Source: Candidatus Rariloculaceae bacterium
GTDB lineage: Bacteria > Pseudomonadota > Gammaproteobacteria > Steroidobacterales > Rariloculaceae
Length of the DNA stretch: 64,000 bases
Reading direction: 5' to 3'
Assembly: GCA_965262365.1 (NCBI GenBank)
Contig: OZ253541.1
Location: 5,417,648 to 5,481,647 of the forward strand
In this document: in pieces, positions 559 through 60,936 of the stretch
Layout: each line of letters starts with the position of its first letter
How positions within the stretch are numbered: position 1 is the first letter of the stretch
Notes under the pieces: model-generated
What the model saw: the letters and a program-made list of their open reading frames with translations, nothing else
Database searches by the model: none
Told to the model about the DNA's origin: nothing
Translations under genes and position numbers: made by a program

Positions 559-598
559 GTAAGCGTTCCGTCAAGGGGGGATCAGCGTTGATCGTACC
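559..598 (+). mobile_element. IS66 left-end stub (40 bp)
   Basis: GTAAGCGTTCCGTCAAGGGGGGATCAGCGTTGATCGTACC closely matches the left end at 7470-7509 and starts with the canonical IS66 GTAA. Confidence 0.8.
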
Positions 599-697
599 GT
601 TCCGTCAAGCGGGGATAGATGACGGCCATTTTTGGCCGATCCAGTGAGCGCGGTGCAAGCGAGGGAGGGCTGATAACCTGATCGGTGTTCGGATAAC

Positions 698-1363
698 CTA
701 CCGGTTGAGGGTTCGTTGCCAGTCTTTGCGCAGGGGGCGAAGCCAGATGTCCTTTTTCGGCTTGTCGTACTGTTTGTAGCGGGCGTTGTCGATCACCAGC
801 GGCAGGTTCTTCTGGCGCAGCGCCGGCGTCCAGCCGATGAAGCGGTCGCGCGGGGCGAGTGTCCGTGCCGCGGTGGAGAAGCCGAGCAGGGCCAGCAGGC
901 GGCCGTGGCGGTCATGGACGGTGTAGCGCATCTGCGCGCCGACCAGGGTCTTGTAGCCGAGGTAGTGGTAGCGGGCGATGAACGCGTTCCACTGCTTGCT
1001 CTGGGGAGTGGCCCCGAGCACGGTTCGCAGGCGGATCGGACGCGCCTCATTGAGGGTGACGGGCGGCGGTTCCAGCGGCGCGTCGGTTTCGGGCCCGAAC
1101 GTGATTGGCACGGCCGGGTTGCGTCCCCACTTCGGCGGCGGCAGGGCGATGCGCCCGTCACGGTGCATGGCCAGCATGGCGACCCGCGCCATCATGTCCT
1201 TGAGCCCGCCGTCGGGCTTGTACCAGCCGATGCGCCGGCAGAACTCTTTCGACAGGGCGAAGCGGTTCAGGGCGGGGAGCCCGGCGATGAGCGCGCGCAG
1301 CAGCGCCATTTCCTCCACCGTGAAGTCGCGTCCGTAATAGCGGCACTCCATTTCGGCGGTCAT
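698..1363 (-). pseudogene. DUF4338 protein with an in-frame 72-aa internal deletion
   Basis: Translation equals 9871..10752 except ...IDNAR|YKQYDK... Confidence 0.85.
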
Positions 1364-1620
1364 CCCGGGGCCATCAGGGTCCGTCGGCGCGCCTGGCTCA
1401 TCGACCACGGCAGCCACTCGGACAGGTCCGGTGGCGCCCGCCCGCCATTGGCCGCGCACGCGTTAAGCCACTCGTGCAGCCAAGCGCGCACATTGAGGCC
1501 GTTCAACGCGAGCGTGCCCACGACCGAGTACATCATCGCGGTGAACCGCGCGCCGGCCTCGCTGTCGGAGCCGAACGACAGGCGCCGTCCGATAACCGCG
1601 CTTCGAAGCGTGCGCTCGGC
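1360..1620 (-). pseudogene. IS66 transposase C-terminal fragment
   Basis: AERTLRSAVIGRRLSFGSDSEAG...TLMAPG, same as the end of 7625..9874. Confidence 0.85.
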
Positions 1621-1810: not shown

Positions 1811-2470
1811 ATGGAAACGGTGGAGCGGTATGAGCGCTTCCTCATCGACGAACGCGGCGCAAGCCCGAAAACGATACTGGCCTATCTCTCGACCGTCCGT
1901 GACTTTCTTGGCGACTGTTTCGAGTCCAGGTGCCAGGATCTTGGATCTCTGGATTGCAGTCACATCAACGGGTTCATACGTCAGTCCTGCCGGACCCAAT
2001 GCTCGGCGACGACACGGGTCCATGTTGCCGCCCTGCGCAGTTTCGCGCGGTATCTGTATCGATCCGGGATCGTCACTGCCGATATTGCCGACGGAATGTG
2101 CCGGGTCAGCACCTGGCGCCTGGCGAACTTGCCGACGGCGTTGGCACCGGACCAAGTCGAAGCGATGCTCGCCAGCTGCAACCGCGAGACGGCCACGGGC
2201 CGGCGCGATTACAGCGTTCTCATGTTGCTGGCGCTCCTTGGGTTGCGCGCTTGCGAGGTCGTCCGTCTGACGCTGGACGATATCGACTGGTCCAACGGCA
2301 AGATTACCGTGGCCGGAAAAGGCGGTCGGCACGACGTTTTGCCGCTGCCCCACCAGGTCGGCGAAGCGCTGGCGGCGTATCTGCAGGGCGGTCGACCGAT
2401 TTGTGCGACACGACGTGTGTTTGTGCGGCGTTATGCCCCTGTAAACGGCTTTCAGTCATCGGCCGCGGTT
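1811..2470 (+). pseudogene. Truncated tyrosine recombinase (RIT/XerD-like)
   Basis: Integrase SAM-like N-part, ...GRRDYSVLMLLALLGLRACEVVRLTLDDIDW...GKGGRHDVLPL; breaks off before the HxxR and Tyr boxes. Confidence 0.75.
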
Positions 2471-3009
2471 GCCCTAAGTGCCAGAGCCTGTCGCAAACTC
2501 GATGGGTCGAGCGCCAGTGCGCCGATCTGCTGGACATCGGCTACTGGCACGTGGTCTTCACCTTGCCCCATCGGCTCAGGTCCTGGCCCTACACTCACAA
2601 GACCGCCATCGGCAACCATCGGCTGATCGACTTCGACGGCGAACACGTGCGGTTCCGATGGCGCGACTACGCCGACGGCAACCGGCGAAAGGTCATGCGG
2701 CTGGAGGTCGACGAGTTCATTCGCCGCTTCCTCCTGCATGTGCTGCCGCGAGGCTTCACCCGCCTGCGCCATTACGGGTTGCTCGCCAATCGCAACCGAT
2801 CCCGGAAGCTTGCCCAATGCCGTGCGTTGCTTGGACAACCGGAGGCCGAACCGCCGAAGGAGGAAACCGCGCAGGAACTGATGTTGCGTGTGACCGGAAT
2901 CGACATTGCCGTGTGCCGGTACTGCGGACGCGGCCAGCTGCGACACCTTGCCATCCTCAAACCGGGTACCGACGCAGTGGTGCCGGCGCCGACGGCGAGA
3001 CCGCCATGA
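2466..3009 (+). pseudogene. IS91-like (Y2) transposase relic with internal deletion
   Basis: RGCPKCQ zinc motif, YWHVVFTLPH joined directly to YTHKTAIGNHRL...FIRRFLLHVLPRGFTRLRHYGLLANR. Confidence 0.8.
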
Positions 3010-3291
3010 CGATTTGTCTGGAACCGGCCAACACCCCTAACCGATCAACGCTCATTGCGCCGCAAGCGACACTGCGCCCGGCTCGGGCGAACACTGGCGT
3101 GAAGGCCACGGAACACACGCGCAACCGCGTGCAAAACCGTGGTTCATCGGATCGTCCTGGCAACGGCCGGCCATCGGTCGCAAAGAGTTGACCCCATCGG
3201 TTCCGCCTGAACCGTTACTTTCCCCATAGCGCGACGCCCGCATCCCGGAGGACGATGCCGAACTCCAAGGGCTGCTGACGCCGAACAGCGT

Positions 3292-6200
3292 TTATCTCAA
3301 CGCTGACTCGAGTCGTGGAAGCGTGTTCGGGTGTGCGGGTAGCATCCATTGGATGTCACGGGAGACGCCGGTGAACTCAATTGGCGTGGCTTCCGCGCGC
3401 TGATCTGTCAGTTCTCCGTCCTTGTACCAACCCAGGAGATAGCGCGTGATTTGGTCATCTGACCACCAGAGAGATATAGCATCAGCCGTCCCAACGGCGC
3501 CGGCAGTATATGTGATGGTGAGGTACAGTGGGTCGGTCCATTGTCCTTTCGATCCGGTAGCAAATGGCCACCGATCCGAGTCATCTTCCCACGAAACATC
3601 TTCCAAATAATCTCCCCAATAAAGGTAGAGAAACTCCCCAACGATCGGAGGATTCGCTTCCATGTCCGGCCAGAGCATTTGTATCGTTACCTGGTCAAAG
3701 GCGGGAATCTGCGACGGCAGCCATTCTTCGAATTCATCGTAATAGTCATCGACGCCGATGCCGAATGCTGCCTCGAATGCCTGCTGCCAGGTTGAATTCT
3801 CACCGAGTAACTTCCAGAACTCCACATAAGCGTTTTCCGACGCTTGCTCGGCCAGGAATTTTGCTGCAACGAAACTCAAGGCATAGTAGTAGATTTCACC
3901 GAACGTACATCTGGCATCCGAATACTCTGCCGTTCTGGCCAAATCACCGTAATTGAGTTCGTCGTTGACTTGGGACCAACCCAAGTCTTTGTAGGGGGAG
4001 TACCTGTCACCCACGAAGGGGCGTCGACCCGGCCTGGTTGGGGTGTACTTGTAATCGGCATAGGAAGCGAGCCCTTCCACCAGCCACTGGGGCGCTACGG
4101 CCTGGGTGTCAGTGTGCCATCCAATCTCGCCGTTCTGTAATTGCGAAAATCCCGAAGCAAGTTGTCCCTGGAGAACATGGAAGTACTCGTGAGCGATATG
4201 GTGTTTGAGTGAAGTGAACGAATAAGCCCCCAATCCGTACATGAGCGTAATGACGGCACTGCCCTGGGCGGAAGATGTAACCCACGCATCCGTATATTTA
4301 GCGTCGGGGTGATAGAAGTACCTGAGATCTGTTCCGACTACATCCCCGTATACCGGTGCCAGCGTTTCGTAATTCGTACCGACCAGAACGGTGAAGTTCG
4401 TTGCCGTAACACCAAACTTATCGGCGAAGTACCTTCGGCTGTACTCCAGCTCTTCGCGCAACATGGTCTGCTCGATATCCGGTACATCTCCTGCAAACAT
4501 CCATGTCACAGTGGAATCGATATACTCAAACGGCTTCTCCACGGAGACGCGCACCGCGTAGGAACAGTTGTTTGCGGTATCGGACTCCCCAGACACTGGG
4601 TCGACACAAGCTCCGAAGTAGTAGGTTCCAGAGGTTGACGGGATTGTCAGGCTGATCGACTCATGGCTGGTACCTCCGGGGGAGAGTGCGCTCAACGCGA
4701 TTGTGCCGACCTCCGTGTCCGTCGTTGAAATCGTGAAGTCCGTCGAGCGATAGTAGCGTAGCGTAGTGGCGGCGGACTGACCGGTGCCCTGGTTGCGGAC
4801 GGTCGCATAGTAAGTGATCGAGGCCCCCGGTTCAGGATTGTTGTCGCTAACCGATGTGGACACGACCACCAGGTCCGGCCCGGAAACCTGACCGCAGGTG
4901 ACGTCGTCATCCAGCGGGCATGCGTCATCCGTGTCGGAAACGCCGTCATTGTCATCGTCCGTGTCGGCGTTGTTGCCGATCCCGTCGCCATCCGTGTCGA
5001 CGGACTCGCCCGGATCCTGCGGGAAGGCGTCGTTCGCGTTGGACACGCCGTCGTTGTCGTCGTCCCCGTCGACCATCCCGCCGCCACCTGTCGTGGGCGG
5101 TGTCGCGGGCGCCTCGGTGCTGCCGGCCACCCGATCCATCCGCCACACCCCTTCGCCTTGGTGCGAGGCCTCAAAATCGTAGACCCGCCCGTTGATCGTC
5201 TGGTTGGTGATCCGGATCCTGATACCGGCCAGGAACGTCAGGAACGAACCCCGGCCGCGTTCATTGACGCTGAACGCGTCCGTCGTGCCGGGGTAGGTGC
5301 AGCTCTGCCCAATGCTCACCGACAGACTCACGTAGCATTCGCCCAACGAACCTGTCTCGGTCGTGCCGGTGTTCACCGTGATGGTGAAGCTGAGCGTGTC
5401 GGTGTCGTCATCCTCATCCGTCACGGTGTACGTCATGGCATGGGTGCCCGCCGTGGTCGGTGTGCCGGTGAGTTGGCGCGCGGTGGCGTTGAACGTCAAC
5501 CCGGCCACGTTGGGCGAGAGACTGTAGGCCAGGGTGCCGTTCCCGCCGCTCGCCTCCGGCAGCGTCAATGCATCGATCGCGGTGCCAACGGTGTAGGTCT
5601 GGTCACCCGGGCCGCTTACACTGCGGAAACTCGGGAATCGATCCACTTCGCCCGAACCCGCCGCACGCCCGGTCACGGTGCCTTGGGTCACTGCCCCATT
5701 CACAATGCTGCATCCCGCTGGCGATGTGCAGGTGTATCTCGTGCCATCGCTCAGCTCGAAGTACTCACCGTCATTCAACTCGATCGTCGTGCCGGCGCCG
5801 GTGGCTGTGACACTTCCACCGGACGCCACTGCTGGAAAGAAAAATCCGGATGTGGGCACGCCGGGGAGCATGTCATCAACCCCATACGTGGTGTCGGTGA
5901 CCTCACCGCCGTCATCCTCGTCATCCTCAATGGACCAGCTCCCGCCCAGCCAGGTCCCGTCCGCCGGGTAATCGCTGCCGGTGCAGTGAGAGGCGAACCA
6001 GCCCGCCGTGTGCGTGGAAAAGTACAGGTTCGCCGCGCATTCGTCGCCGTCGTCGTAGGTGAGCGTCAATCGGCCCGCGTCTGGGCCGATGCCTTCGTAG
6101 CCGTAGCTGCCGGTGTAGGTCGTTGAGGTCCCATCGACCTCGCCGGTCTCGCTGAACTCATCGCCCGTCATGGCATTGAGCGTGAAGCGGTCGCTACCGC

Positions 6201-7119
6201 TAAGGTAGACAACGTCGATCCCGACGAAGCGTTCGTTGAACGCCTCAAGATCCGCCGGCGCCGCTCCCGGCACCGCAGTCGTTGAAAGGTTGTTCCAGTA
6301 CCCGGCGGTGGCCGCGACGATATTCACCACCTGAAGCGGCTGGTCCGACGACACCGTCAGCCGCCACTTGCCGGTGCCGGCGCCCAACTGGCCCGTGATG
6401 GCGGTGGCACCCGCCTCCAGTTGCTGCGCGGTCAGCGTCTGAGCACCGCCCGCCGCAAGCGTCAGCGTCACGTCTCCCCCGGTGGCCGCGGCACCGCCGT
6501 CGTCGCGCCCCGCAATCGTCACCGAAGCCGCCGCATCGCCCGGATTGATCAGCCGCAGCCGGCTCACCTGGGTGGCGTCGCTGGCGGGGTTGAAGATCGG
6601 CACTTCATAGGTGTAACCGTCCGACCCGTCAGTGGCCGCCGCGCCGCGCACCGTATCGTGCATCGCGCTCAGTGTGCCGTCGGCAGCGCGAACGAAGGCC
6701 AGGGGCACGATGGAAAGATCCGTCTCGATCTGAAGGCGCGCATCGCCCACGTCCGTGCCGATACCCCCGGTCAATCCCAGGGTCGCGTTACCGGAGGCAA
6801 GGTCGGTGGCCGTGAACTGCACCGCCGCCGAGGCGTTCAGCGTGAAGGTGGCGGGACCGGATCGTGTGCCGGCGTCATCGATGGCGTAGATCTCCACCGT
6901 GCCGGACTCGTCCGTGCCGTTGAGAATCCGCAGCACCCCCTGCGGCTCGCTCGATGTGCCCGCCGGCGCCAACAGCGGCACCGTGTAGTGCTCGGCTTGC
7001 GCCGCCGAAGCAAAAAACAGCAGACCCGCGAGGACAAGGCGTCGGAAAATCCTGCTCTTAATTTTGATAAGCCTTCCCGGCCTGCGGCGAGTCCATGCAG
7101 CGGTCAATTTGCGGAACAT
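3292..7119 (-). CDS. Large secreted modular protein: duplicated N-terminal beta domains, putative Ig (He_PIG-like), thrombospondin type-3-like Ca repeats, CARDB, C-terminal HExxH zinc metallopeptidase-like domain
   Basis: Signal-like RRLVLAGLLFFASAAQA; DGDDDNDGVSNANDAFPQDP/DTDGDGIGNNADTDDDNDG; PDLVVVSTSVSDNNPEPG...VRNQG; HHIAHEYFHVLQ...WLVEGLASY. Start uncertain (7158 or 7119). Confidence 0.8.
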   Translation of the reverse strand: MFRKLTAAWTRRRPGRLIKIKSRIFRRLVLAGLLFFASAAQAEHYTVPLLAPAGTSSEPQGVLRILNGTDESGTVEIYAIDDAGTRSGPATFTLNASAAVQFTATDLASGNATLGLTGGIGTDVGDARLQIETDLSIVPLAFVRAADGTLSAMHDTVRGAAATDGSDGYTYEVPIFNPASDATQVSRLRLINPGDAAASVTIAGRDDGGAAATGGDVTLTLAAGGAQTLTAQQLEAGATAITGQLGAGTGKWRLTVSSDQPLQVVNIVAATAGYWNNLSTTAVPGAAPADLEAFNERFVGIDVVYLSGSDRFTLNAMTGDEFSETGEVDGTSTTYTGSYGYEGIGPDAGRLTLTYDDGDECAANLYFSTHTAGWFASHCTGSDYPADGTWLGGSWSIEDDEDDGGEVTDTTYGVDDMLPGVPTSGFFFPAVASGGSVTATGAGTTIELNDGEYFELSDGTRYTCTSPAGCSIVNGAVTQGTVTGRAAGSGEVDRFPSFRSVSGPGDQTYTVGTAIDALTLPEASGGNGTLAYSLSPNVAGLTFNATARQLTGTPTTAGTHAMTYTVTDEDDDTDTLSFTITVNTGTTETGSLGECYVSLSVSIGQSCTYPGTTDAFSVNERGRGSFLTFLAGIRIRITNQTINGRVYDFEASHQGEGVWRMDRVAGSTEAPATPPTTGGGGMVDGDDDNDGVSNANDAFPQDPGESVDTDGDGIGNNADTDDDNDGVSDTDDACPLDDDVTCGQVSGPDLVVVSTSVSDNNPEPGASITYYATVRNQGTGQSAATTLRYYRSTDFTISTTDTEVGTIALSALSPGGTSHESISLTIPSTSGTYYFGACVDPVSGESDTANNCSYAVRVSVEKPFEYIDSTVTWMFAGDVPDIEQTMLREELEYSRRYFADKFGVTATNFTVLVGTNYETLAPVYGDVVGTDLRYFYHPDAKYTDAWVTSSAQGSAVITLMYGLGAYSFTSLKHHIAHEYFHVLQGQLASGFSQLQNGEIGWHTDTQAVAPQWLVEGLASYADYKYTPTRPGRRPFVGDRYSPYKDLGWSQVNDELNYGDLARTAEYSDARCTFGEIYYYALSFVAAKFLAEQASENAYVEFWKLLGENSTWQQAFEAAFGIGVDDYYDEFEEWLPSQIPAFDQVTIQMLWPDMEANPPIVGEFLYLYWGDYLEDVSWEDDSDRWPFATGSKGQWTDPLYLTITYTAGAVGTADAISLWWSDDQITRYLLGWYKDGELTDQRAEATPIEFTGVSRDIQWMLPAHPNTLPRLESALR

Positions 7120-7624
7120 GCTCACCAACGACGAATACATCGTGTAGGGATTGCGCACGATATTGACGAACCGGGCCGCCGGTCAAAAGCTCCAACCATG
7201 CGGCACTCACCGTGGCGATGTGCGCGACACGACCGCGTCCCTCGCCGTCGAACCCATTCCATCGCCTCCATCCTCGGCTCGCGACGAACGTCCGGGCGTG
7301 TTCCGGAACCGAAGATCCCCGTCCACCGGCTTTCCCGGTGCGCGCGCGCGCGAGCGATGAAAAAATACACACGAAAGCCATAGTAGAAGAATGGCGCGCC
7401 GATGTATCTCCCCAACATTGGGGGAGAGGAGGCGTTTTTTTTTCGAACGGTTTCAGTCGGTTACGGAGAGGAACCGTTCCGTCAAGCGGGGATCGGCGTT
7501 GATCGTACCCTATTTTTCCGTAATCGAGCTGGCTGGCGGCTTCGAGTATTTTGTGACCGGTGCCGGTGAGAAAATCGCTTTGGGGCGCTGGTAACACGAT
7601 CGGCATTGCGGTATCGTTGCGCGC

Positions 7625-9874
7625 ATGGCGATTCGCGCAGAGGATGTCCGCACAGAACTGACGCTGATTGAGCGTGCCGAGGGGACCGGGCCGCAGCCTA
7701 AGGCGGTGCCGGCGGGTGAGCGGCGCGACTACCGTTTGCTGTATGAGCGGGAGGTGGCGCGGGCGGGCGAAGCCGAAGCCCGGGCGAAAGCGGCCGAAGC
7801 GCGAGCCGAAGAGTTTCGCTGTGCGGAGGTCAGGACCCGTTTCGAATCCGCTTCCTGGAAGCATCGGTACGAGCTTTCCCGGAGGAAGCTGACGAGAGTC
7901 GTCGAGCAGACGAAGGCAATCCGGGGCACGGCGAACAACGCGCAGTCGTTGCAGGGATCGCAGCACCGGAAAGACACGATCAAGTCGCTGCGCACGGAAC
8001 GCGGCGGGCTGCGCAAGGAGGTGACCCGGCTGAACCGGGACCTCACTCGGCTGGAGACGCGTCTGGCCCGCCAGACGGAGAAGTCGGAGACCCACAAGAA
8101 AACCATCCTGCGGCTTTACAAAGAGGACGTTCGGCTTCGTAGGGAGCTGAGGGGATTACGCGATCAAGAGGATGTAGTTGGGTCGCTGTGCGACGAGGTG
8201 TACTGGTTGCGTTATGCCCTGAAGAGGTCGGAGGCCGGGAAGGAGGCGTTGAAAGCCCGGCTGGTCAAGCTTCGCGCCACCGGGGCGACGCTTTCGAAGT
8301 TGCCGTCCGACGAGGTCGCACAGCTGCGCAAGGCGCTGAGGCGGTCGCGGCGCCAGAAGACGACGATCAAGTCACTGTACAAGGAGAACGCCCGGCTGCG
8401 CAGGGCGGCGCAGGTGTCGCAAAGCCGCAAGGAGGCCTTGAGCGCGGAGTTAGCGGAGGTTCGTGCGAGTCGGGCCGTATTGTCGAAGTGGCTGTACGGG
8501 CGCAGGAGCGAGCAACAGGACAAGTTCCGCTCGGCGCGTCGGCGCGGCCAGCAGCCTGGCGCTCCCGGCCATGGCCGCACCCCGCGACCGGGGCTTGAGG
8601 AACGGATCGAAATCCACCAACCGCCGGCGGAAGCATGCGTGTGTGGCCGCTGCGGTACCCCGTATGTGGCCAACGGCGAGCGTTCCACCACGATCGTCGA
8701 AATCGACGTGAAGGCGCATACACGGCGCATCGTCCGTCCCCGCTGGCGCCGGCGGTGCGACTGTGCCGATTCCCCGCCGGATGTTATCGCGGCAACGCCG
8801 GACCGGGTGTTCGCCCGCGCGGCCTACGGCACCAGCGTGTGGACGCATGTTCTGTTCGAGCGCTACCTGTGCAATCGGCCGCCGAACGGGGTGGCGATGT
8901 CGTTGTCGCATCAGGGACTGCCCATCTCCGCCGGTACGCTGGCCCGCGGGCTGGCGCGGCTCGCGCCGCTGTTCCAGCGGCTGGCGCTGGCGATGCTGGA
9001 GCACCAGAACGAGGCGGCTGTGCGCCACGGCGACGAGACCGGCTGGCGTATCCAGGCGCTGCGCCAGGCGGGACGTTCCGGGCGCGCCTGGCTGTGGGTC
9101 TCGGTGACCGAGCATGCCGTGTACTTCCACATCGATCCCTCGCGCAGCGCCGAGGCGGCGCTGAAGGTGTTCGGCGGTGCCGTGGGCGTGCAGGTCCTGG
9201 TGGTCGACCGCTACTCCACTTACAAGAAGCTGGCCCGCGTGCTCGAGGGCCGGGTGATCCTGGCGTGGTGCTGGGCGCACCAACGCCGCGACTATATCGA
9301 CTGCGCCGCCGGGCAGGTGGAACTGAGCGAATGGTGTCAGGCATGGTTGGGGCGCATCGCCGCAATCTACCGGCTGAACAAGACGCGGCTGTCGCATTAC
9401 GAGTCCAGTGCCGAGAGACAGAACGAGGCGTTCGACACCGCGCAGCGGGCGCTGGAAACCGAGGTCAAGGGTCTGTTCGCCACCGTCGAACGGGAACTGG
9501 CGGGGCTTGACGACACCGCACCCGAGGCCGGGCCGCTGCGCTCGCTGCTGAAGCATCGCGATGGCCTGAGCGTGTTCCTCGAACGGCCCGAGGTGCCCAT
9601 GGACAATAATTTTGCCGAGCGCACGCTTCGAAGCGCGGTTATCGGACGGCGCCTGTCGTTCGGCTCCGACAGCGAGGCCGGCGCGCGGTTCACCGCGATG
9701 ATGTACTCGGTCGTGGGCACGCTCGCGTTGAACGGCCTCAATGTGCGCGCTTGGCTGCACGAGTGGCTTAACGCGTGCGCGGCCAATGGCGGGCGGGCGC
9801 CACCGGACCTGTCCGAGTGGCTGCCGTGGTCGATGAGCCAGGCGCGCCGACGGACCCTGATGGCCCCGGGATGA
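7625..9874 (+). CDS. IS66-family transposase (TnpC-like) with a long N-terminal coiled coil
   Basis: LYGRRSEQ, RRRGQQPGAPGHGR, CxCxxC zinc finger, RHGDETGW, LVVDRYSTY, WCWAHQRR, DNNFAERTLR. Confidence 0.9.
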   Translation: MAIRAEDVRTELTLIERAEGTGPQPKAVPAGERRDYRLLYEREVARAGEAEARAKAAEARAEEFRCAEVRTRFESASWKHRYELSRRKLTRVVEQTKAIRGTANNAQSLQGSQHRKDTIKSLRTERGGLRKEVTRLNRDLTRLETRLARQTEKSETHKKTILRLYKEDVRLRRELRGLRDQEDVVGSLCDEVYWLRYALKRSEAGKEALKARLVKLRATGATLSKLPSDEVAQLRKALRRSRRQKTTIKSLYKENARLRRAAQVSQSRKEALSAELAEVRASRAVLSKWLYGRRSEQQDKFRSARRRGQQPGAPGHGRTPRPGLEERIEIHQPPAEACVCGRCGTPYVANGERSTTIVEIDVKAHTRRIVRPRWRRRCDCADSPPDVIAATPDRVFARAAYGTSVWTHVLFERYLCNRPPNGVAMSLSHQGLPISAGTLARGLARLAPLFQRLALAMLEHQNEAAVRHGDETGWRIQALRQAGRSGRAWLWVSVTEHAVYFHIDPSRSAEAALKVFGGAVGVQVLVVDRYSTYKKLARVLEGRVILAWCWAHQRRDYIDCAAGQVELSEWCQAWLGRIAAIYRLNKTRLSHYESSAERQNEAFDTAQRALETEVKGLFATVERELAGLDDTAPEAGPLRSLLKHRDGLSVFLERPEVPMDNNFAERTLRSAVIGRRLSFGSDSEAGARFTAMMYSVVGTLALNGLNVRAWLHEWLNACAANGGRAPPDLSEWLPWSMSQARRRTLMAPG

Positions 9875-10752
9875 CCGCCGAAATGGAGTGCCGCTATTAC
9901 GGACGCGACTTCACGGTGGAGGAAATGGCGCTGCTGCGCGCGCTCATCGCCGGGCTCCCCGCCCTGAACCGCTTCGCCCTGTCGAAAGAGTTCTGCCGGC
10001 GCATCGGCTGGTACAAGCCCGACGGCGGGCTCAAGGACATGATGGCGCGGGTCGCCATGCTGGCCATGCACCGTGACGGGCGCATCGCCCTGCCGCCGCC
10101 GAAGTGGGGACGCAACCCGGCCGTGCCAATCACGTTCGGGCCCGAAACCGACGCGCCGCTGGAACCGCCGCCCGTCACCCTCAATGAGGCGCGTCCGATC
10201 CGCCTGCGAACCGTGCTCGGGGCCACTCCCCAGAGCAAGCAGTGGAACGCGTTCATCGCCCGCTACCACTACCTCGGCTACAAGACCCTGGTCGGCGCGC
10301 AGATGCGCTACACCGTCCATGACCGCCACGGTCGCCTGCTGGCCCTGCTCGGCTTCTCCACCGCGGCACGGACACTCGCCCCGCGCGACCGCTTCATCGG
10401 CTGGACGCCGGCGCTGCGCCAGAAGAACCTGCCGCTGGTGATCGACAACGCCCGCTTCCTGATCCTGCCCTGGATCCGCATCCCCAACCTGGCCTCGCAC
10501 ATCCTGTCCGTCGTCTGCCGACAACTGCCCGGGCAGTGGACCGAGCGCTACAACACCTCGCCGGTGTTGATCGAAACCTTCGTGGAGACCCCGCGCTTCA
10601 CAGGCGCCACCTACAAAGCCTCGGGGTGGGTCAACGTCGGCACCACCCAAGGACGCGGGCGCTACGACCGCTACAAACAGTACGACAAGCCGAAAAAGGA
10701 CATCTGGCTTCGCCCCCTGCGCAAAGACTGGCAACGAACCCTCAACCGGTAG
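9871..10752 (+). CDS. DUF4338 (Druantia DruA-like) domain protein
   Basis: ATGA overlap with the transposase stop; FIARYHYLGY, NARFLILPW, NLASHIL, ETFVETPRFTGATYKASGW, GTTQGRGRYD. Confidence 0.8.
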   Translation: MTAEMECRYYGRDFTVEEMALLRALIAGLPALNRFALSKEFCRRIGWYKPDGGLKDMMARVAMLAMHRDGRIALPPPKWGRNPAVPITFGPETDAPLEPPPVTLNEARPIRLRTVLGATPQSKQWNAFIARYHYLGYKTLVGAQMRYTVHDRHGRLLALLGFSTAARTLAPRDRFIGWTPALRQKNLPLVIDNARFLILPWIRIPNLASHILSVVCRQLPGQWTERYNTSPVLIETFVETPRFTGATYKASGWVNVGTTQGRGRYDRYKQYDKPKKDIWLRPLRKDWQRTLNR

Positions 10753-10855
10753 GTCATCCGAACACCGATCAGGTTATCAGCCCTCCCTCGCTTGCACCGC
10801 GCTCACTGGATCGGCAAAAATCTCCGTCATCTATCCCCGCTTGACGGAACGGTTA

Positions 10856-11669
10856 TTGCGCCAGGGAAAGCCCTGGAGAGGAGAATGCTATGAATTGAAA
10901 CTGAAACCTCTCGTAGCGATCCAGCGGGTTCGACTCCCGCCCGGCAAAGGCGCAGCCCGCCAGCCGGAAGCAAGTCTTGCGTGGCGCGCGGCAACGCCCG
11001 TCGTGAAGCGTAGACAGCAGGTGATGAAGCGGCGGAGGAAGCCTCGAAATCGGAATCGATGACGCCTTCATTGTTAATCGTGTGGGGGCAGCACCGGAAG
11101 CGCCGCTATTGGTGAGGCGCAACGGGTCGTCCGGGGTCGTGGACCGGCGCAGAGTCACGGAATGGATCGCCTGGGAACCTGGGAGGTCCTGCTCACGCCC
11201 ACGGGCAACGACGCTGGAAGGGGATTGCCAGCATAAATCCAGACCCCGGCCCGTCGCCGGGCCTGCACGGCGGCGGGACCGCCCGATGCGGACACGAATT
11301 CCGACAGGCACCCGTGGAACCGGCTGGCGAAAACAATAAGCCGAAGGACATGCGAGGGCAGGAAGTCGTAGCGCCTTGATAGTACCTGTGAAGGCGGGGA
11401 ACCGTGGCCCTCGGGACCCGCTGGAGGGAAGCGGGGCGTCACTTGTACAGAGCCACTGATGGGAAACGCTGGAGGAAACGCTGAGTTCCACAAACACGTA
11501 CACGAAACAGCAGTGGATAGCCGAACAGGCGAGGGAGCGGTCTTCCTCAACCTGCGGATCAAGGACGAAACTCCTTGAGCGAACCTGTCAGGTGAGGAAC
11601 CGAGTGCGTCAATCGCGCACGCTCGGGTCTGCGGGGGGAGGGGCTCGGTAACGACCCCTCCTACCCGGC
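10856..11669 (+). ncRNA. ORF-less group II intron (IIB-like), copy 1
   Basis: 5' TTGCG; EBS1 loop TAATCGT at 11075-11081; domain V GAACCGAGTGCGTCAATCGCGCACGCTCGGGTC at 11597-11629; domain VI with GTAA loop and bulged A, ending CCTACCCGGC; repeated at 59081-59894. Confidence 0.9.
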
Positions 11670-11785
11670 CGCTCAAAGAGCCGACATGAGAGCGCTGTAA
11701 TTGGAATAAATCTGTATGCGGTTTGCTTACGAAGCAAAGTGGCCAAGAAGACTTAGCGACTAACCACGCCAATCTTTTTCCCATA

Positions 11786-58985: not shown

Positions 58986-60936
58986 TCAGTCGATCGGCTT
59001 GCCATCAGCATCGTATCTGGCCAGTTGCCGGATCCCGCTCGATATCGACAAGGTACCATCCAGGTATCGACGAACGATTATTGCGCCAGGGAAAGCCCTG
59101 GAGAGGAGAATGCTATGAATTGAAACTGAAACCTCTCGTAGCGATCCAGCGGGTTCGACTCCCGCCCGGCAAAGGCGCAGCCCGCCAGCCGGAAGCAAGT
59201 CTTGCGTGGCGCGCGGCAACGCCCGTCGTGAAGCGTAGACAGCAGGTGATGAAGCGGCGGAGGAAGCCTCGAAATCGGAATCGATGACGCCTTCATTGTT
59301 AATCGTGTGGGGGCAGCACCGGAAGCGCCGCTATTGGTGAGGCGCAACGGGTCGTCCGGGGTCGTGGACCGGCGCAGAGTCACGGAATGGATCGCCTGGG
59401 AACCTGGGAGGTCCTGCTCACGCCCACGGGCAACGACGCTGGAAGGGGATTGCCAGCATAAATCCAGACCCCGGCCCGTCGCCGGGCCTGCACGGCGGCG
59501 GGACCGCCCGATGCGGACACGAATTCCGACAGGCACCCGTGGAACCGGCTGGCGAAAACAATAAGCCGAAGGACATGCGAGGGCAGGAAGTCGTAGCGCC
59601 TTGATAGTACCTGTGAAGGCGGGGAACCGTGGCCCTCGGGACCCGCTGGAGGGAAGCGGGGCGTCACTTGTACAGAGCCACTGATGGGAAACGCTGGAGG
59701 AAACGCTGAGTTCCACAAACACGTACACGAAACAGCAGTGGATAGCCGAACAGGCGAGGGAGCGGTCTTCCTCAACCTGCGGATCAAGGACGAAACTCCT
59801 TGAGCGAACCTGTCAGGTGAGGAACCGAGTGCGTCAATCGCGCACGCTCGGGTCTGCGGGGGGAGGGGCTCGGTAACGACCCCTCCTACCCGGCCGCGAG
59901 AGTTGGCCAACCTGCACTTCAGACGATCGCCAGGCAGCCTCAACAAGCGGCTCTTGAAGCGCACGCAATTGTCCTTGCGCACGACCCTCCAGTACTGCTC
60001 ACACAGGATGTCGACCAATTGAGAGGGATCCGTACAAGGTTCGAACGCAGAACCCTCTCGTTGAGCGACCTGCTGGAATTCCTCGTTGTATGCGCGCTGA
60101 TAGATACTTGCCAGGTAGCGGTTGGCTGCGGCAAATTCGGTGATCCCTGCAGCCGCAAGTTCCGACGGTAACCGGTTCATATGAGTTTGAAAGACGCGCT
60201 GGCAGCGTGTGCGAACCTGCGTGGAGCGAGTTGCGACCAACTTGATCCCAAGCTGCATCATTGCCCGCTCAATCTGGGTGAGTTTCCGGGGACCTTGTGT
60301 TTCGGCCGCCTCCGCCTTCCCTTTGTATCGATACTGTGACGTACGATCAGTGTAAAGCGAGCAGAAAAACCCCTTTCGCTCGAGCACGTCACGGACGCCG
60401 ACAAGGCTGCTCCGGGTACCTGCCTGTTCGCAGACGAACATCGAATAGTGCTCACTCGTGGCGTCGTCCAATGTCACCACCAGATCGCAGTGACGCCCAG
60501 CCAGCCACTCGTGTCTGGAACTATCCTGGTGCAGCCTCAGGCCGGGTAGCGACGCGCGATCAAAGCGCAAACGGTGCAGCCCCCGCCGCGGCAGTTTTTT
60601 AACAGCCCCTGCGTCCTGCAGTTGCATCCGCACCCAGTTGTAGCTGCGCTGGCCGCCTTCGTAGCGGTACCAGGCGTAGAATTGTTTGACGTTCCAGCCT
60701 TCGTGTTGCTTGTTGTATGCGTTGACCACGTCTGCAATCTCGTCCAGCGGCGCCCGACGTGGAGAGCCCCGTAACTGGCGTCTATCGATCAATCCCTCCG
60801 AACCGCCGCTTTCGAAACGATGAACGTAACGACGAAACGTTCTATCGCTTACACCAAGCAATTTGGCCGCTACGGTCTGTGTAATCCTACGGGACTTCCA
60901 GGCTCTGTACAGACTTTCAAACTTCATGATCCGCAA
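58986..60936 (-). pseudogene. ISNCY-family transposase interrupted by an antisense group II intron (coding parts 60936-59895 and 59080-58986; 378 aa rejoined)
   Basis: HTH AAKLLGVSDRTFRR, LHQDSSRHEWL, TLDDATSE, YTDR; rejoined C-terminus [37 protein letters not shown]. Confidence 0.85.
59081..59894 (+). ncRNA. ORF-less group II intron (IIB-like), copy 2
   Basis: Same 814 nt as 10856-11669 (matching ORF-track translations); EBS1 at 59300-59306, domain V at 59822-59854. Confidence 0.9.

What the first reader, a model, noticed from the sequence alone, without database searches (positions are those of the whole stretch)
10833..11670. Intron inserted one base from the outer end of the IS66 right TIR
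Seen: the 5' exon ends ...TTGACGGAACGGTTA (10855) and the 3' exon starts with C (11670). Rejoined, the reverse complement is GTAACCGTTCCGTCAAGCGGGGAT, 23/24 to the left TIR and carrying the IS66 GTAA terminus. The terminal base now sits 814 nt away. Inference: this IS copy is immobilised, or the intron rides on it. Every intact TIR of this IS would be a ready homing site, so the intron could act as a genome-wide IS silencer.
Basis: partly seen in the sequence, partly recalled or inferred. Interest (0 to 1): 0.75.

Follow-up and report, generated by a model that had tools for sequence, protein, structure and literature searches.

The report
Group II intron splitting IS66 end
A small protein-less self-splicing intron has copied itself into the last-but-one base of a jumping gene's terminal repeat. 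This is a recent, well-documented example of a known habit of bacterial introns (parasitising other mobile DNA), not a new kind of system.

Summary
Window 10856-11669 is an 814-nt ORF-less group II intron lying between ...GGAACGGTTA and the terminal C (11670) of the right inverted repeat of an IS66-family element.

Main evidence:
- Six sister insertions in the genome have 8-bp target duplications that start directly after that C.
- An intron-free allele of this exact junction (a precise 814-nt skip) occurs in five other public runs.
- The genome holds 11 near-identical ORF-less copies and 8 ORF-carrying or fragmentary relatives. All 18 mapped 5' junctions read ...NTTA|UUGCG, and all 17 mapped 3' junctions are followed by C.
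- The EBS1 loop of each variant pairs with its own target: S with CG(G/A)UUA, L1 with CGCUUA, L2 with CAGUUA. Across other genomes 38 of 50 intron/site pairs show full 6-bp pairing, against about 9 when sites are permuted.
- 17 of 19 copies face the way expected for an endonuclease-less intron entering the lagging-strand template.

The "genome-wide IS silencer" idea is only partly supported. Only 4 of 18 copies of the abundant sister IS carry an intron, never at both ends. Seven of the 11 ORF-less copies lie outside verified IS66 ends.

The closest precedent is RmInt2 in the inverted repeats of ISRm17. I file this as a new member of a known kind, of moderate interest.

The parts
7470..7493 (+). 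Left terminal inverted repeat of the IS66-family element (IS-A). The tip reads GGAA instead of GTAA.
   Evidence: 1 mismatch to the rejoined right end; sequence
7625..9874 (+). IS66-family DDE transposase gene (749 aa)
   Evidence: NCBIfam NF033517, 271 bits; Pfam DDE_Tnp_IS66, 174 bits
9886..10752 (+). DruA-like (DUF4338) gene carried by the IS in place of tnpA/tnpB
   Evidence: Pfam PF14236, 132 bits; the same gene pair abuts related introns in other genomes
10833..10855 (+). Inner 23 nt of the right terminal inverted repeat, which is the 5' exon. IBS1 is ACGGTTA at 10849-10855.
10856..11669 (+). ORF-less group II intron 'S' (814 nt), from 5' UUGCG to GGC 3'
   Evidence: Rfam; 11 copies in the genome; precise 814-nt skip in 5 runs
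11075..11080 (+). EBS1 (UAAUCG) in the terminal loop 11072-11081. It pairs with CGGUUA or CGAUUA at the end of the 5' exon.
11481..11595 (+). Domain IV remnant. The first ~20 codons of the lost reverse transcriptase reading frame are kept, then a clean deletion of about 1.2 kb relative to the L copies.
   Evidence: alignment of S with L1 and L2
11597..11629 (+). Domain V. The catalytic-triad position reads AAC, with A opposite G.
11632..11667 (+). Domain VI, with a bulged A at 11663, six nucleotides before the 3' splice site
11670..11670 (+). Terminal base of the IS right repeat (the G of GTAA on the other strand). It is the first base of the 3' exon (IBS3).
   Evidence: target-duplication evidence from sister copies; intron-free allele
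59081..59894 (+). Second identical S copy. It lies antisense in the 3' end of another transposase gene (helix-turn-helix / IS481-type N-terminus). Its 5' exon ends ...CGAACGATTA and its 3' exon starts with C.
595..1620 (-). Partial inverted second copy of IS-A. Its right tip reads GGTAC (one T missing, so IBS1 is destroyed). It is fused to a further IS66-type repeat at 559-582.
6613..6623 (-). Unoccupied candidate site CGGACGGTTAC inside the 1288-aa gene at 3292-7158. This gene is a paralogue of three genes that carry S at this position. The site faces the disfavoured way relative to replication.

Best explanation
A non-autonomous (ORF-deleted) group II intron of an endonuclease-less, IIB-like lineage retrohomed into the right terminal inverted repeat of an IS66-family element.

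Target recognition. The intron RNA recognises the last bases of the repeat by base pairing. EBS1 (UAAUCG) pairs with CGGUUA, and the base after the insertion point is always C. The RNA reverse-spliced between TTA and the terminal C. I infer that this happened on the strand that templates lagging-strand synthesis and that a nascent DNA end primed reverse transcription.

Source of the protein. The reverse transcriptase/maturase is supplied in trans by the roughly 90%-identical ORF-carrying relatives (L1, L2) in the same genome. This is also inferred.

Lineage. The lineage as a whole specialises on the conserved GTAA tip of IS66-family repeats. Its EBS1 changes with the repeat variant.

Consequence for the IS. 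The terminal base of this IS end is moved 814 nt away at the DNA level, and RNA splicing cannot undo that. This end is therefore most likely unusable by the transposase. The intron gains a harmless, multi-copy, horizontally travelling landing site and can be transcribed by read-through from the IS genes.
For: Shown:
- Intron identity and exact boundaries.
- All 18 mapped 5' junctions in the genome read ...ACGNTTA|TTGCG, and all 17 mapped 3' junctions are followed by C.
- The 8-bp duplications flank IS + intron + C in six cases: gtaatttc, ataccacc, ttttccgc, ccggtcgc, agcaagac, gacttcgc.
- EBS1 covaries with the target in S, L1 and L2. Across other genomes 38 of 50 unique pairs show 6-bp pairing, against 8.9 when sites are permuted.
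- The IS-flank junction without the intron is present in runs X6, X8, X9, X11 and X12, with 0 mismatches over 323 nt of unique flank. Runs X1 and X4 hold the intron-flank junction.
- 10 S copies are identical and 1 has a single mismatch. Four L1 copies are identical and carry a 442-codon open RT/maturase frame (TIGR04416, 347 bits).
- S keeps the 5' part of domain IV up to the start of the reading frame.
- 17 of 19 copies are co-oriented with replication as read from GC skew, against 49 of 95 unoccupied look-alike sites (Fisher p = 0.002; p = 0.012 for 15 independent events).
- Relatives in many other genomes abut IS66 transposase / DruA-like gene pairs at either IS end.
- No terminator-like site lies between the IS genes and the intron.

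Precedent: RmInt2 uses both inverted repeats of ISRm17, and lagging-strand bias is reported for introns lacking the endonuclease domain (PMC4615759, PMC5894124).
Against: - Nothing here measures splicing, mobility or transposition.
- Trans-mobilisation by the L protein is inferred from co-residence. No full-length parent closer than about 91% was found.
- The ribozyme has non-consensus features: 5' UUGCG, 3' GC, AAC in domain V, and a D5/D6 score below Rfam's gathering threshold.
- Two copies (4412110, and borderline 4094096) face the disfavoured way.
- This IS copy lacks a target duplication and has a mutated left tip, so it may already have been immobile before the intron arrived.
- Origin and terminus come from GC skew only.
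Confidence: 0.88

Rival explanations
1. The intron acts as a host-beneficial, genome-wide silencer of IS66 elements. It seeks out every intact repeat and shuts the family down.
For: Recurrent insertion at IS66 tips in this and other genomes. DNA-level damage to the repeat cannot be undone by splicing. The literature proposes that intron insertion limits IS spread (PMC5894124).
Against: Only 4 of 18 copies of the sister IS (ISB, nearly all 100% identical to one another, so recently expanded) are invaded, each at one end. Fifteen favourably oriented ISB ends are empty. Seven of 11 S copies lie outside verified IS66 ends, including sense insertions in large genes and an antisense hit in a receptor-like gene. 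Transposase genes of invaded copies stay intact.
Confidence: 0.15
2. The order of events is the reverse. The IS66 element transposed next to a pre-existing intron, with the intron's 5' end acting as an IS target.
For: IS66-type elements and introns are adjacent many times.
Against: In five runs the same IS-flank junction exists without the intron. The target duplications enclose IS + intron + C. EBS1 pairs with the repeat tip. The same intron sits at non-IS sites that share only ACGNTTA|C.
Confidence: 0.02
3. The composite (IS plus the intron in its end) is itself the mobile unit: the intron rides on a still-mobile IS.
For: Two ISB::L1 composites 22 kb apart have different target duplications. 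Related IS::intron pairs with identical 5' exons but different 3' flanks occur in one other genome. Right-end insertions are co-oriented with the IS genes.
Against: The same pattern arises from independent homing after each transposition. A repeat split after its first base is unlikely to be cleaved correctly. The invaded copy at 4879266-4882012 has decayed by internal deletion.
Confidence: 0.12

Closest known systems
[quoted passage not shown]
   Same: A group II intron without an endonuclease domain. It uses an IS inverted repeat as its natural target, so each IS offers two oppositely oriented sites. It shows relaxed target specificity with ectopic sites. Delta-ORF forms are mobilisable by a related protein in trans.
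   Different: The intron lineage differs: rhizobial relatives are at most 69% identical in protein, and the class was not determined here. The IS is a different one. Here the cut lies one base from the IS tip. The dominant form here is a natural ORF-less copy. The habit is shared by relatives in many phyla. The position of RmInt2 within the ISRm17 repeat was not checked.
RmInt1 in ISRm2011-2, and Sr.md.I1 inside an IS66 transposase gene (PMC4615759, PMC5894124)
   Same: An intron parasitising an IS, and the idea that this limits IS spread. More distant relatives of the present intron (Bradyrhizobium, Labrys, Rhizobium) also sit inside IS66 transposase genes.
   Different: Those insertions are in coding sequence, where splicing can in principle restore the mRNA when the intron is in sense. 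Here the target is a DNA site needed in cis.
ORF-less bacterial group II introns served in trans by related intron proteins (review PMC4424553)
   Same: The ORF-less copy resides with ORF-carrying relatives in the same genome and keeps the 5' part of domain IV.
   Different: The review calls such introns rare in bacteria. Here the ORF-less form outnumbers the full-length ones (11 against 5) and is essentially clonal.
Group IIC introns at terminator stem-loops or attC sites (PMC4424553, PMC1702495)
   Same: Endonuclease-less introns that choose a recurrent, harmless DNA motif.
   Different: IIC recognition is largely structural with a short EBS1. Here there is a 6-7 bp sequence pairing, the RNA is IIB-like, and the Rfam family is different.

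Membership tests
Group II intron (ribozyme) | Domains I-IV matching a curated covariance model | tested here: met
   RF02005, 125.4 bits against a gathering score of 49, full model 1-225
Group II intron (ribozyme) | Domain V/VI with a bulged branch A near the 3' end | tested here: inconclusive
   RF00029 scores 35.8 bits, below its gathering score of 40. The fold gives a D5 hairpin and a D6 with a bulged A six nucleotides from the 3' end. The D5 triad reads AAC, not AGC.
Group II intron (ribozyme) | Consensus termini 5' GUGYG ... AY 3' | tested here: not met
   The termini are UUGCG ... GC in S and UUGCG ... GA in L. The whole clade starts UUGCG or UAGCG. A UUGCG start has been reported for another bacterial intron (PMC7923331).
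Group II intron (ribozyme) | EBS1-IBS1 pairing with the end of the 5' exon | tested here: met
   6-bp pairing in S, L1 and L2, and in 38 of 50 intron/site pairs, against 8.9 when permuted
Mobile group II intron (retroelement) | Intron-encoded reverse transcriptase/maturase in domain IV | tested here: not met
   S has only a remnant. L1 and L2 in the same genome encode it (TIGR04416, 347 bits).
Mobile group II intron (retroelement) | Evidence of recent insertion (occupied and empty alleles, identical copies) | tested here: met
   an empty paralogous site within the genome at 5249034
IS66 family insertion sequence | DDE transposase of the IS66 type | tested here: met
   NF033517 and PF03050
   Met in sister copies IS-A2, IS-C, ISB and a 236-bp MITE. 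In the window copy the right end is GTAA once rejoined, the left tip reads GGAA, and there is no duplication.
IS66 family insertion sequence | Accessory genes tnpA and tnpB upstream of the transposase | tested here: not met
   Only the transposase and a downstream DruA-like gene are present.
IS-repeat-homing introns (RmInt2 type) | [quoted passage not shown] | tested here: met
   Left ends at 257201, 3555704, 4094096 and 4882013. Right ends at window 10856, 5133041 and 5155267.
IS-repeat-homing introns (RmInt2 type) | Experimentally shown retrohoming into the repeat, with lagging-strand preference | not testable with these tools
   Only the genomic orientation bias is available: 17 of 19 copies.

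The most novel reading that the evidence does not exclude
This intron clade may be an obligate hyperparasite of IS66-family elements across phyla in sponge-associated bacteria. Its EBS1 would co-evolve with positions 5-7 of the IS repeat while anchoring on the invariant GTAA tip. Because it severs the tip at the DNA level, each hit would permanently kill one IS end. Together with a SINE-like ORF-less derivative, this would measurably curb IS66 expansion and select for tip variants (GGAA, GAAA, GTAC) that escape pairing.
Probability: 0.2. Interest if true: 0.6.

Novelty: new member of a known kind. Interest (0 to 1): 0.4.

Why it matters
This is an unusually clean natural record of an intron invading a transposon end. 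It has exact boundaries, the empty allele of the same site, base-pairing covariation, replication-strand bias, and a non-autonomous copy that outnumbers its helpers.

It extends the RmInt2/ISRm17 habit to the IS66 family. It also suggests that a whole intron clade, spread across phyla in sponge microbiomes, tracks IS66 tips.

If split ends are indeed dead, such introns are a DNA-level brake on one IS family. The EBS1 and target pairs listed here would allow that to be tested with simple plasmid assays.

Tried and rejected
- An alternative 3' boundary (intron ending ...GGCC, which would give seven nucleotides after the branch A and an 'AC' end in L). Rejected because the target duplications start right after that C, and because of the 814-nt skip with no ambiguity.
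- The idea that TTA belongs to the intron. Rejected because intact repeats end ...TTAC and because of the EBS1 pairing.
- A full-length parent of S. None closer than about 91% was found in 80 related loci or in 30 relatives of the genome.
- Class assignment (D, E or F) of the encoded protein. Not achieved: the papers held give no diagnostic that I could apply, and annotated hits say only 'group II intron RT/maturase'.
- EBS2. Only a weak candidate was found (UCGG at about 11051-11054 against CCGA at -11 to -8). It does not fit this repeat (CGGA), so it is left open.
- Sponge metatranscriptomes. They show RNA from relatives of the intron but no coverage of this copy's exons, so they say nothing about its splicing.
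- Tip variants as 'escape' mutations. The GAAA tips of ISB lie at ends that face the disfavoured way, so there is no support.
- Three papers could not be read, or did not settle the family of ISRm17.

Full report
WHAT IS THERE

Window 7470-11670 is an IS66-family element, which I call IS-A. It carries:
- a 749-aa IS66 DDE transposase gene at 7625-9874 (NF033517, 271 bits; PF03050);
- a DruA-like/DUF4338 gene at 9886-10752 (PF14236).

Its right inverted repeat runs to ...GGAACGGTTA at 10855. An 814-nt insert follows at 10856-11669, then a single C at 11670, then unrelated DNA.

The insert is a group II intron. Rfam RF02005 (domains I-IV) scores 125 bits. RF00029 (domains V/VI) scores 35.8 bits and ends at 11669. 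Folding gives a domain V hairpin and a domain VI with a bulged A at 11663. It has no reading frame for a reverse transcriptase.

The rejoined end GTAACCGTTCCGTCAAGCGGGGAT matches the left repeat at 7470-7493 at 23 of 24 positions. Chance expectation is zero.

EXACT BOUNDARIES AND ORDER OF EVENTS

The window lies in a 6.03-Mb single-contig genome. That genome contains 19 copies of the intron family:
- 11 copies of the 814-nt form 'S' (10 identical, 1 with one mismatch);
- 5 full-length copies of about 2028 nt: L1 four times, identical, and L2 once;
- 3 fragments.

The L forms are about 90% identical to S and carry a 442-codon open RT/maturase frame (TIGR04416, 347 bits).

All 18 mapped 5' junctions read ...ACGNTTA|TTGCG, and all 17 mapped 3' junctions are followed by C.

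In six cases the intron sits in the end of an IS66-type element whose 8-bp target duplication can be read. The duplication always begins directly after that C:

| Element | Target duplication |
|---|---|
| IS-A2 | gtaatttc |
| IS-C | ataccacc |
| 236-bp MITE | ttttccgc |
| ISB copy 1 | ccggtcgc |
| ISB copy 2 | agcaagac |
| ISB copy 3 | gacttcgc |

So the C is the terminal base of the IS, and the intron is UUGCG...GGC (GGA in the L forms).

Independent confirmation comes from public runs.
- In five runs (X6, X8, X9, X11, X12; at least four samples), contigs join 10855 directly to 11670 ('skips 814', no positional ambiguity). They then continue for 323 nt of unique flank without a mismatch.
- Runs X1 and X4 instead hold the intron-flank junction.

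The IS was therefore at this site first, and the intron arrived later, in only part of the population. One caveat applies. These records are short assembler contigs, and the 29-43 nt on the IS side are repeated DNA. The unique side anchors them.

An empty paralogous site also exists inside the genome, at 5249034.

HOW THE TARGET IS CHOSEN

A hairpin loop in domain I (11072-11081) carries UAAUCG. This pairs with CGGUUA or CGAUUA at the end of the 5' exon.

The three variants in the genome differ in precisely this loop, and each matches its own sites:

| Variant | EBS1 | Target (IBS1) | Where |
|---|---|---|---|
| S | UAAUCG | CG(G/A)UUA | IS-A-type tip GTAACCG |
| L1 | UAAGUG | CGCUUA | ISB tip GTAAGCG |
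| L2 | UAACUG | CAGUUA | L2 sites |

I fetched 80 loci from other genomes that encode relatives of the L protein. Among the 50 unique intron/site pairs analysed (47 from these loci plus S, L1 and L2), 38 show uninterrupted 6-bp pairing at the same loop position. Permuting the sites gives 8.9. This set includes relatives with entirely different targets: UUGACC, CUCGCA, CCCAGC, CUUGCA.

The sub-clade whose EBS1 begins UAA lands on NNNTTA|C, which is the conserved GTAA tip of IS66 repeats read on the other strand. Of 28 such unique sites in other genomes, at least 20 carry an inner-repeat motif, an abutting IS66 transposase / DruA-like gene pair, or both. They occur at left and right IS ends.

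More distant relatives (Bradyrhizobium, Labrys, Rhizobium; about 69% protein identity) instead sit antisense inside classical IS66 transposase genes.

MECHANISM OF ENTRY

The encoded protein has RT and maturase regions but no endonuclease domain: it is about 440 aa and matches the RT/maturase model end to end.

Cumulative GC skew places the origin near 4.07 Mb and the terminus near 1.20 Mb. Seventeen of the 19 intron copies have their sense strand co-oriented with fork movement, which is the lagging-strand template. Among unoccupied look-alike sites the figure is 49 of 95. Fisher's test gives p = 0.002, or p = 0.012 when only about 15 independent events are counted.

This is the bias described for RmInt1-type introns (PMC4615759, PMC5894124). 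It also explains why no IS has both ends invaded.

S keeps the 5' part of domain IV up to the first ~20 codons of the lost frame. That fits mobilisation by the L1/L2 protein in trans. This step is inferred, not shown.

CONSEQUENCES

At the DNA level the repeat's terminal base is now 814 nt from the rest of the repeat. Splicing cannot restore that. I infer that this end is useless to the transposase, but this is untested.

This particular IS copy also has a mutated left tip (GGAA) and no target duplication. It may therefore already have been crippled.

No terminator-like site separates the IS genes from the intron, so read-through transcription of the intron from the IS is plausible.

The 'genome-wide silencer' reading is weak.
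- ISB has 18 copies, nearly all 100% identical, so it expanded recently. Only 4 carry L1, each at one end. Fifteen favourably oriented ISB ends are empty.
- Seven of the 11 S copies lie outside verified IS66 ends:
  - three are in sense in paralogous secreted-protein genes;
  - one is in sense in a repeat-protein gene of more than 1599 aa;
  - one is antisense in a TonB-receptor-like gene;
  - one is antisense in another transposase gene (window 59081-59894);
  - one is unassigned.

For the four sense insertions, removing exactly the intron restores long open frames.

COMPARISON WITH WHAT IS KNOWN

[quoted passage not shown] Its authors argue that this doubles the number of targets and guarantees one on the lagging-strand template (PMC4615759, PMC5894124).

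ORF-less bacterial group II introns living beside ORF-carrying relatives are known but described as rare (PMC4424553). A UUGCG 5' end has been reported once elsewhere (PMC7923331).

I found no paper in the held library that links this clade to IS66 tips. The library is incomplete, and two key papers could not be read.

I therefore file the finding as a new member of a known kind. The points beyond the precedent are:
- the position one base from the tip;
- EBS1 tracking of repeat variants;
- the cross-phylum spread, mostly in genomes assembled from metagenomes (several with sponge-associated names; the intron's RNA is also seen in sponge metatranscriptomes);
- an ORF-less form that outnumbers its helpers.

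OPEN POINTS

- The class of the encoded protein is undetermined.
- EBS2 was not identified.
- Splicing competence is untested, given the non-consensus termini and the AAC in domain V.
- Whether IS::intron composites can still move is unknown.
- One clear exception to the strand bias remains (4412110).

Noticed in passing
G000:C1:4077785-4097657 (outside the window); also about 91.8-98.9 kb from the window start: Identical 3563-bp ISB copies stand head-to-tail in tandem arrays of up to four or five, separated by only 7-9 nt (ccttgaa, cccttgaaa). One array ends in an L1-invaded copy. Some array-end tips read GAAAGCG instead of GTAAGCG.
   Followed up: partly
window 7625-10752: This IS66-type element carries a DruA-like (DUF4338, Druantia component) gene instead of tnpA/tnpB. 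The same transposase + DruA-like pair abuts related introns in many other genomes.
   Followed up: partly
window 559-1620: The partial inverted IS-A copy has a 207-bp internal deletion in the DruA-like gene and a right tip lacking one T (GGTAC). It is fused to 40 nt that look like the left end of another IS66-type element (GTAAGCGTTCCGTCAAGGGGGGATCAGCGTTGATCGTACC).
   Followed up: partly
window 11597-11629, and the L copies: Domain V reads GAACC...GGGUC. The usual AGC triad is AAC, with A opposite G, in S, L1 and L2. Two relatives seen in passing also have AAC (one with A-U). The encoded RT has FADD instead of YADD in all 50 motif instances found in the close-relative loci, while more distant relatives keep YADD.
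   Followed up: partly
G000:C1:4929387, 5231733, 5254399, 3988240: S sits in sense inside three paralogous large secreted-protein genes at the same codon, and inside a repeat-rich gene of more than 1599 aa. Removing it restores the frames. Unoccupied paralogous sites exist at 5249034 (favoured orientation) and at window 6613-6623 (disfavoured orientation).
   Followed up: partly
G000:C1:4412112-4412343, and similar pairs near 177267, 3513656, 4317493, 4883647: Short (about 120-236 bp) MITE-like elements consist of two IS66-type repeats. The one at 4412112 has an 8-bp duplication and carries S in one repeat, in the disfavoured orientation. This is the one clear exception to the strand bias.
   Followed up: partly
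window 11529-11574, in RNA run X25: A sponge metatranscriptome contig matches the intron but skips a further 44 nt at the deletion scar. Other ORF-less variants of this family therefore exist and are transcribed elsewhere.
   Followed up: no
loci L001-L080: Proteins 82-96% identical to the L protein occur in genomes labelled Gamma- and Alphaproteobacteria, Binatia, Nitrospinota, Thermodesulfobacteriota, Spirochaetia and Gemmatimonadetes. Most are assembled from metagenomes and several carry sponge-associated names. Only 3 of 17 same-genus genomes (own genome included) have the intron. This pattern points to recent horizontal spread.
   Followed up: partly
locus L026 (about 1876-5930): Two full-length intron copies lie head to tail in one IS66 end of another genome. 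The 3' end GGC is followed directly by TTGCGCC.
   Followed up: no
G000:C1:2825161: An L1 copy interrupts a Fic-domain gene in sense, just before the HPFxxGNGR motif.
   Followed up: no
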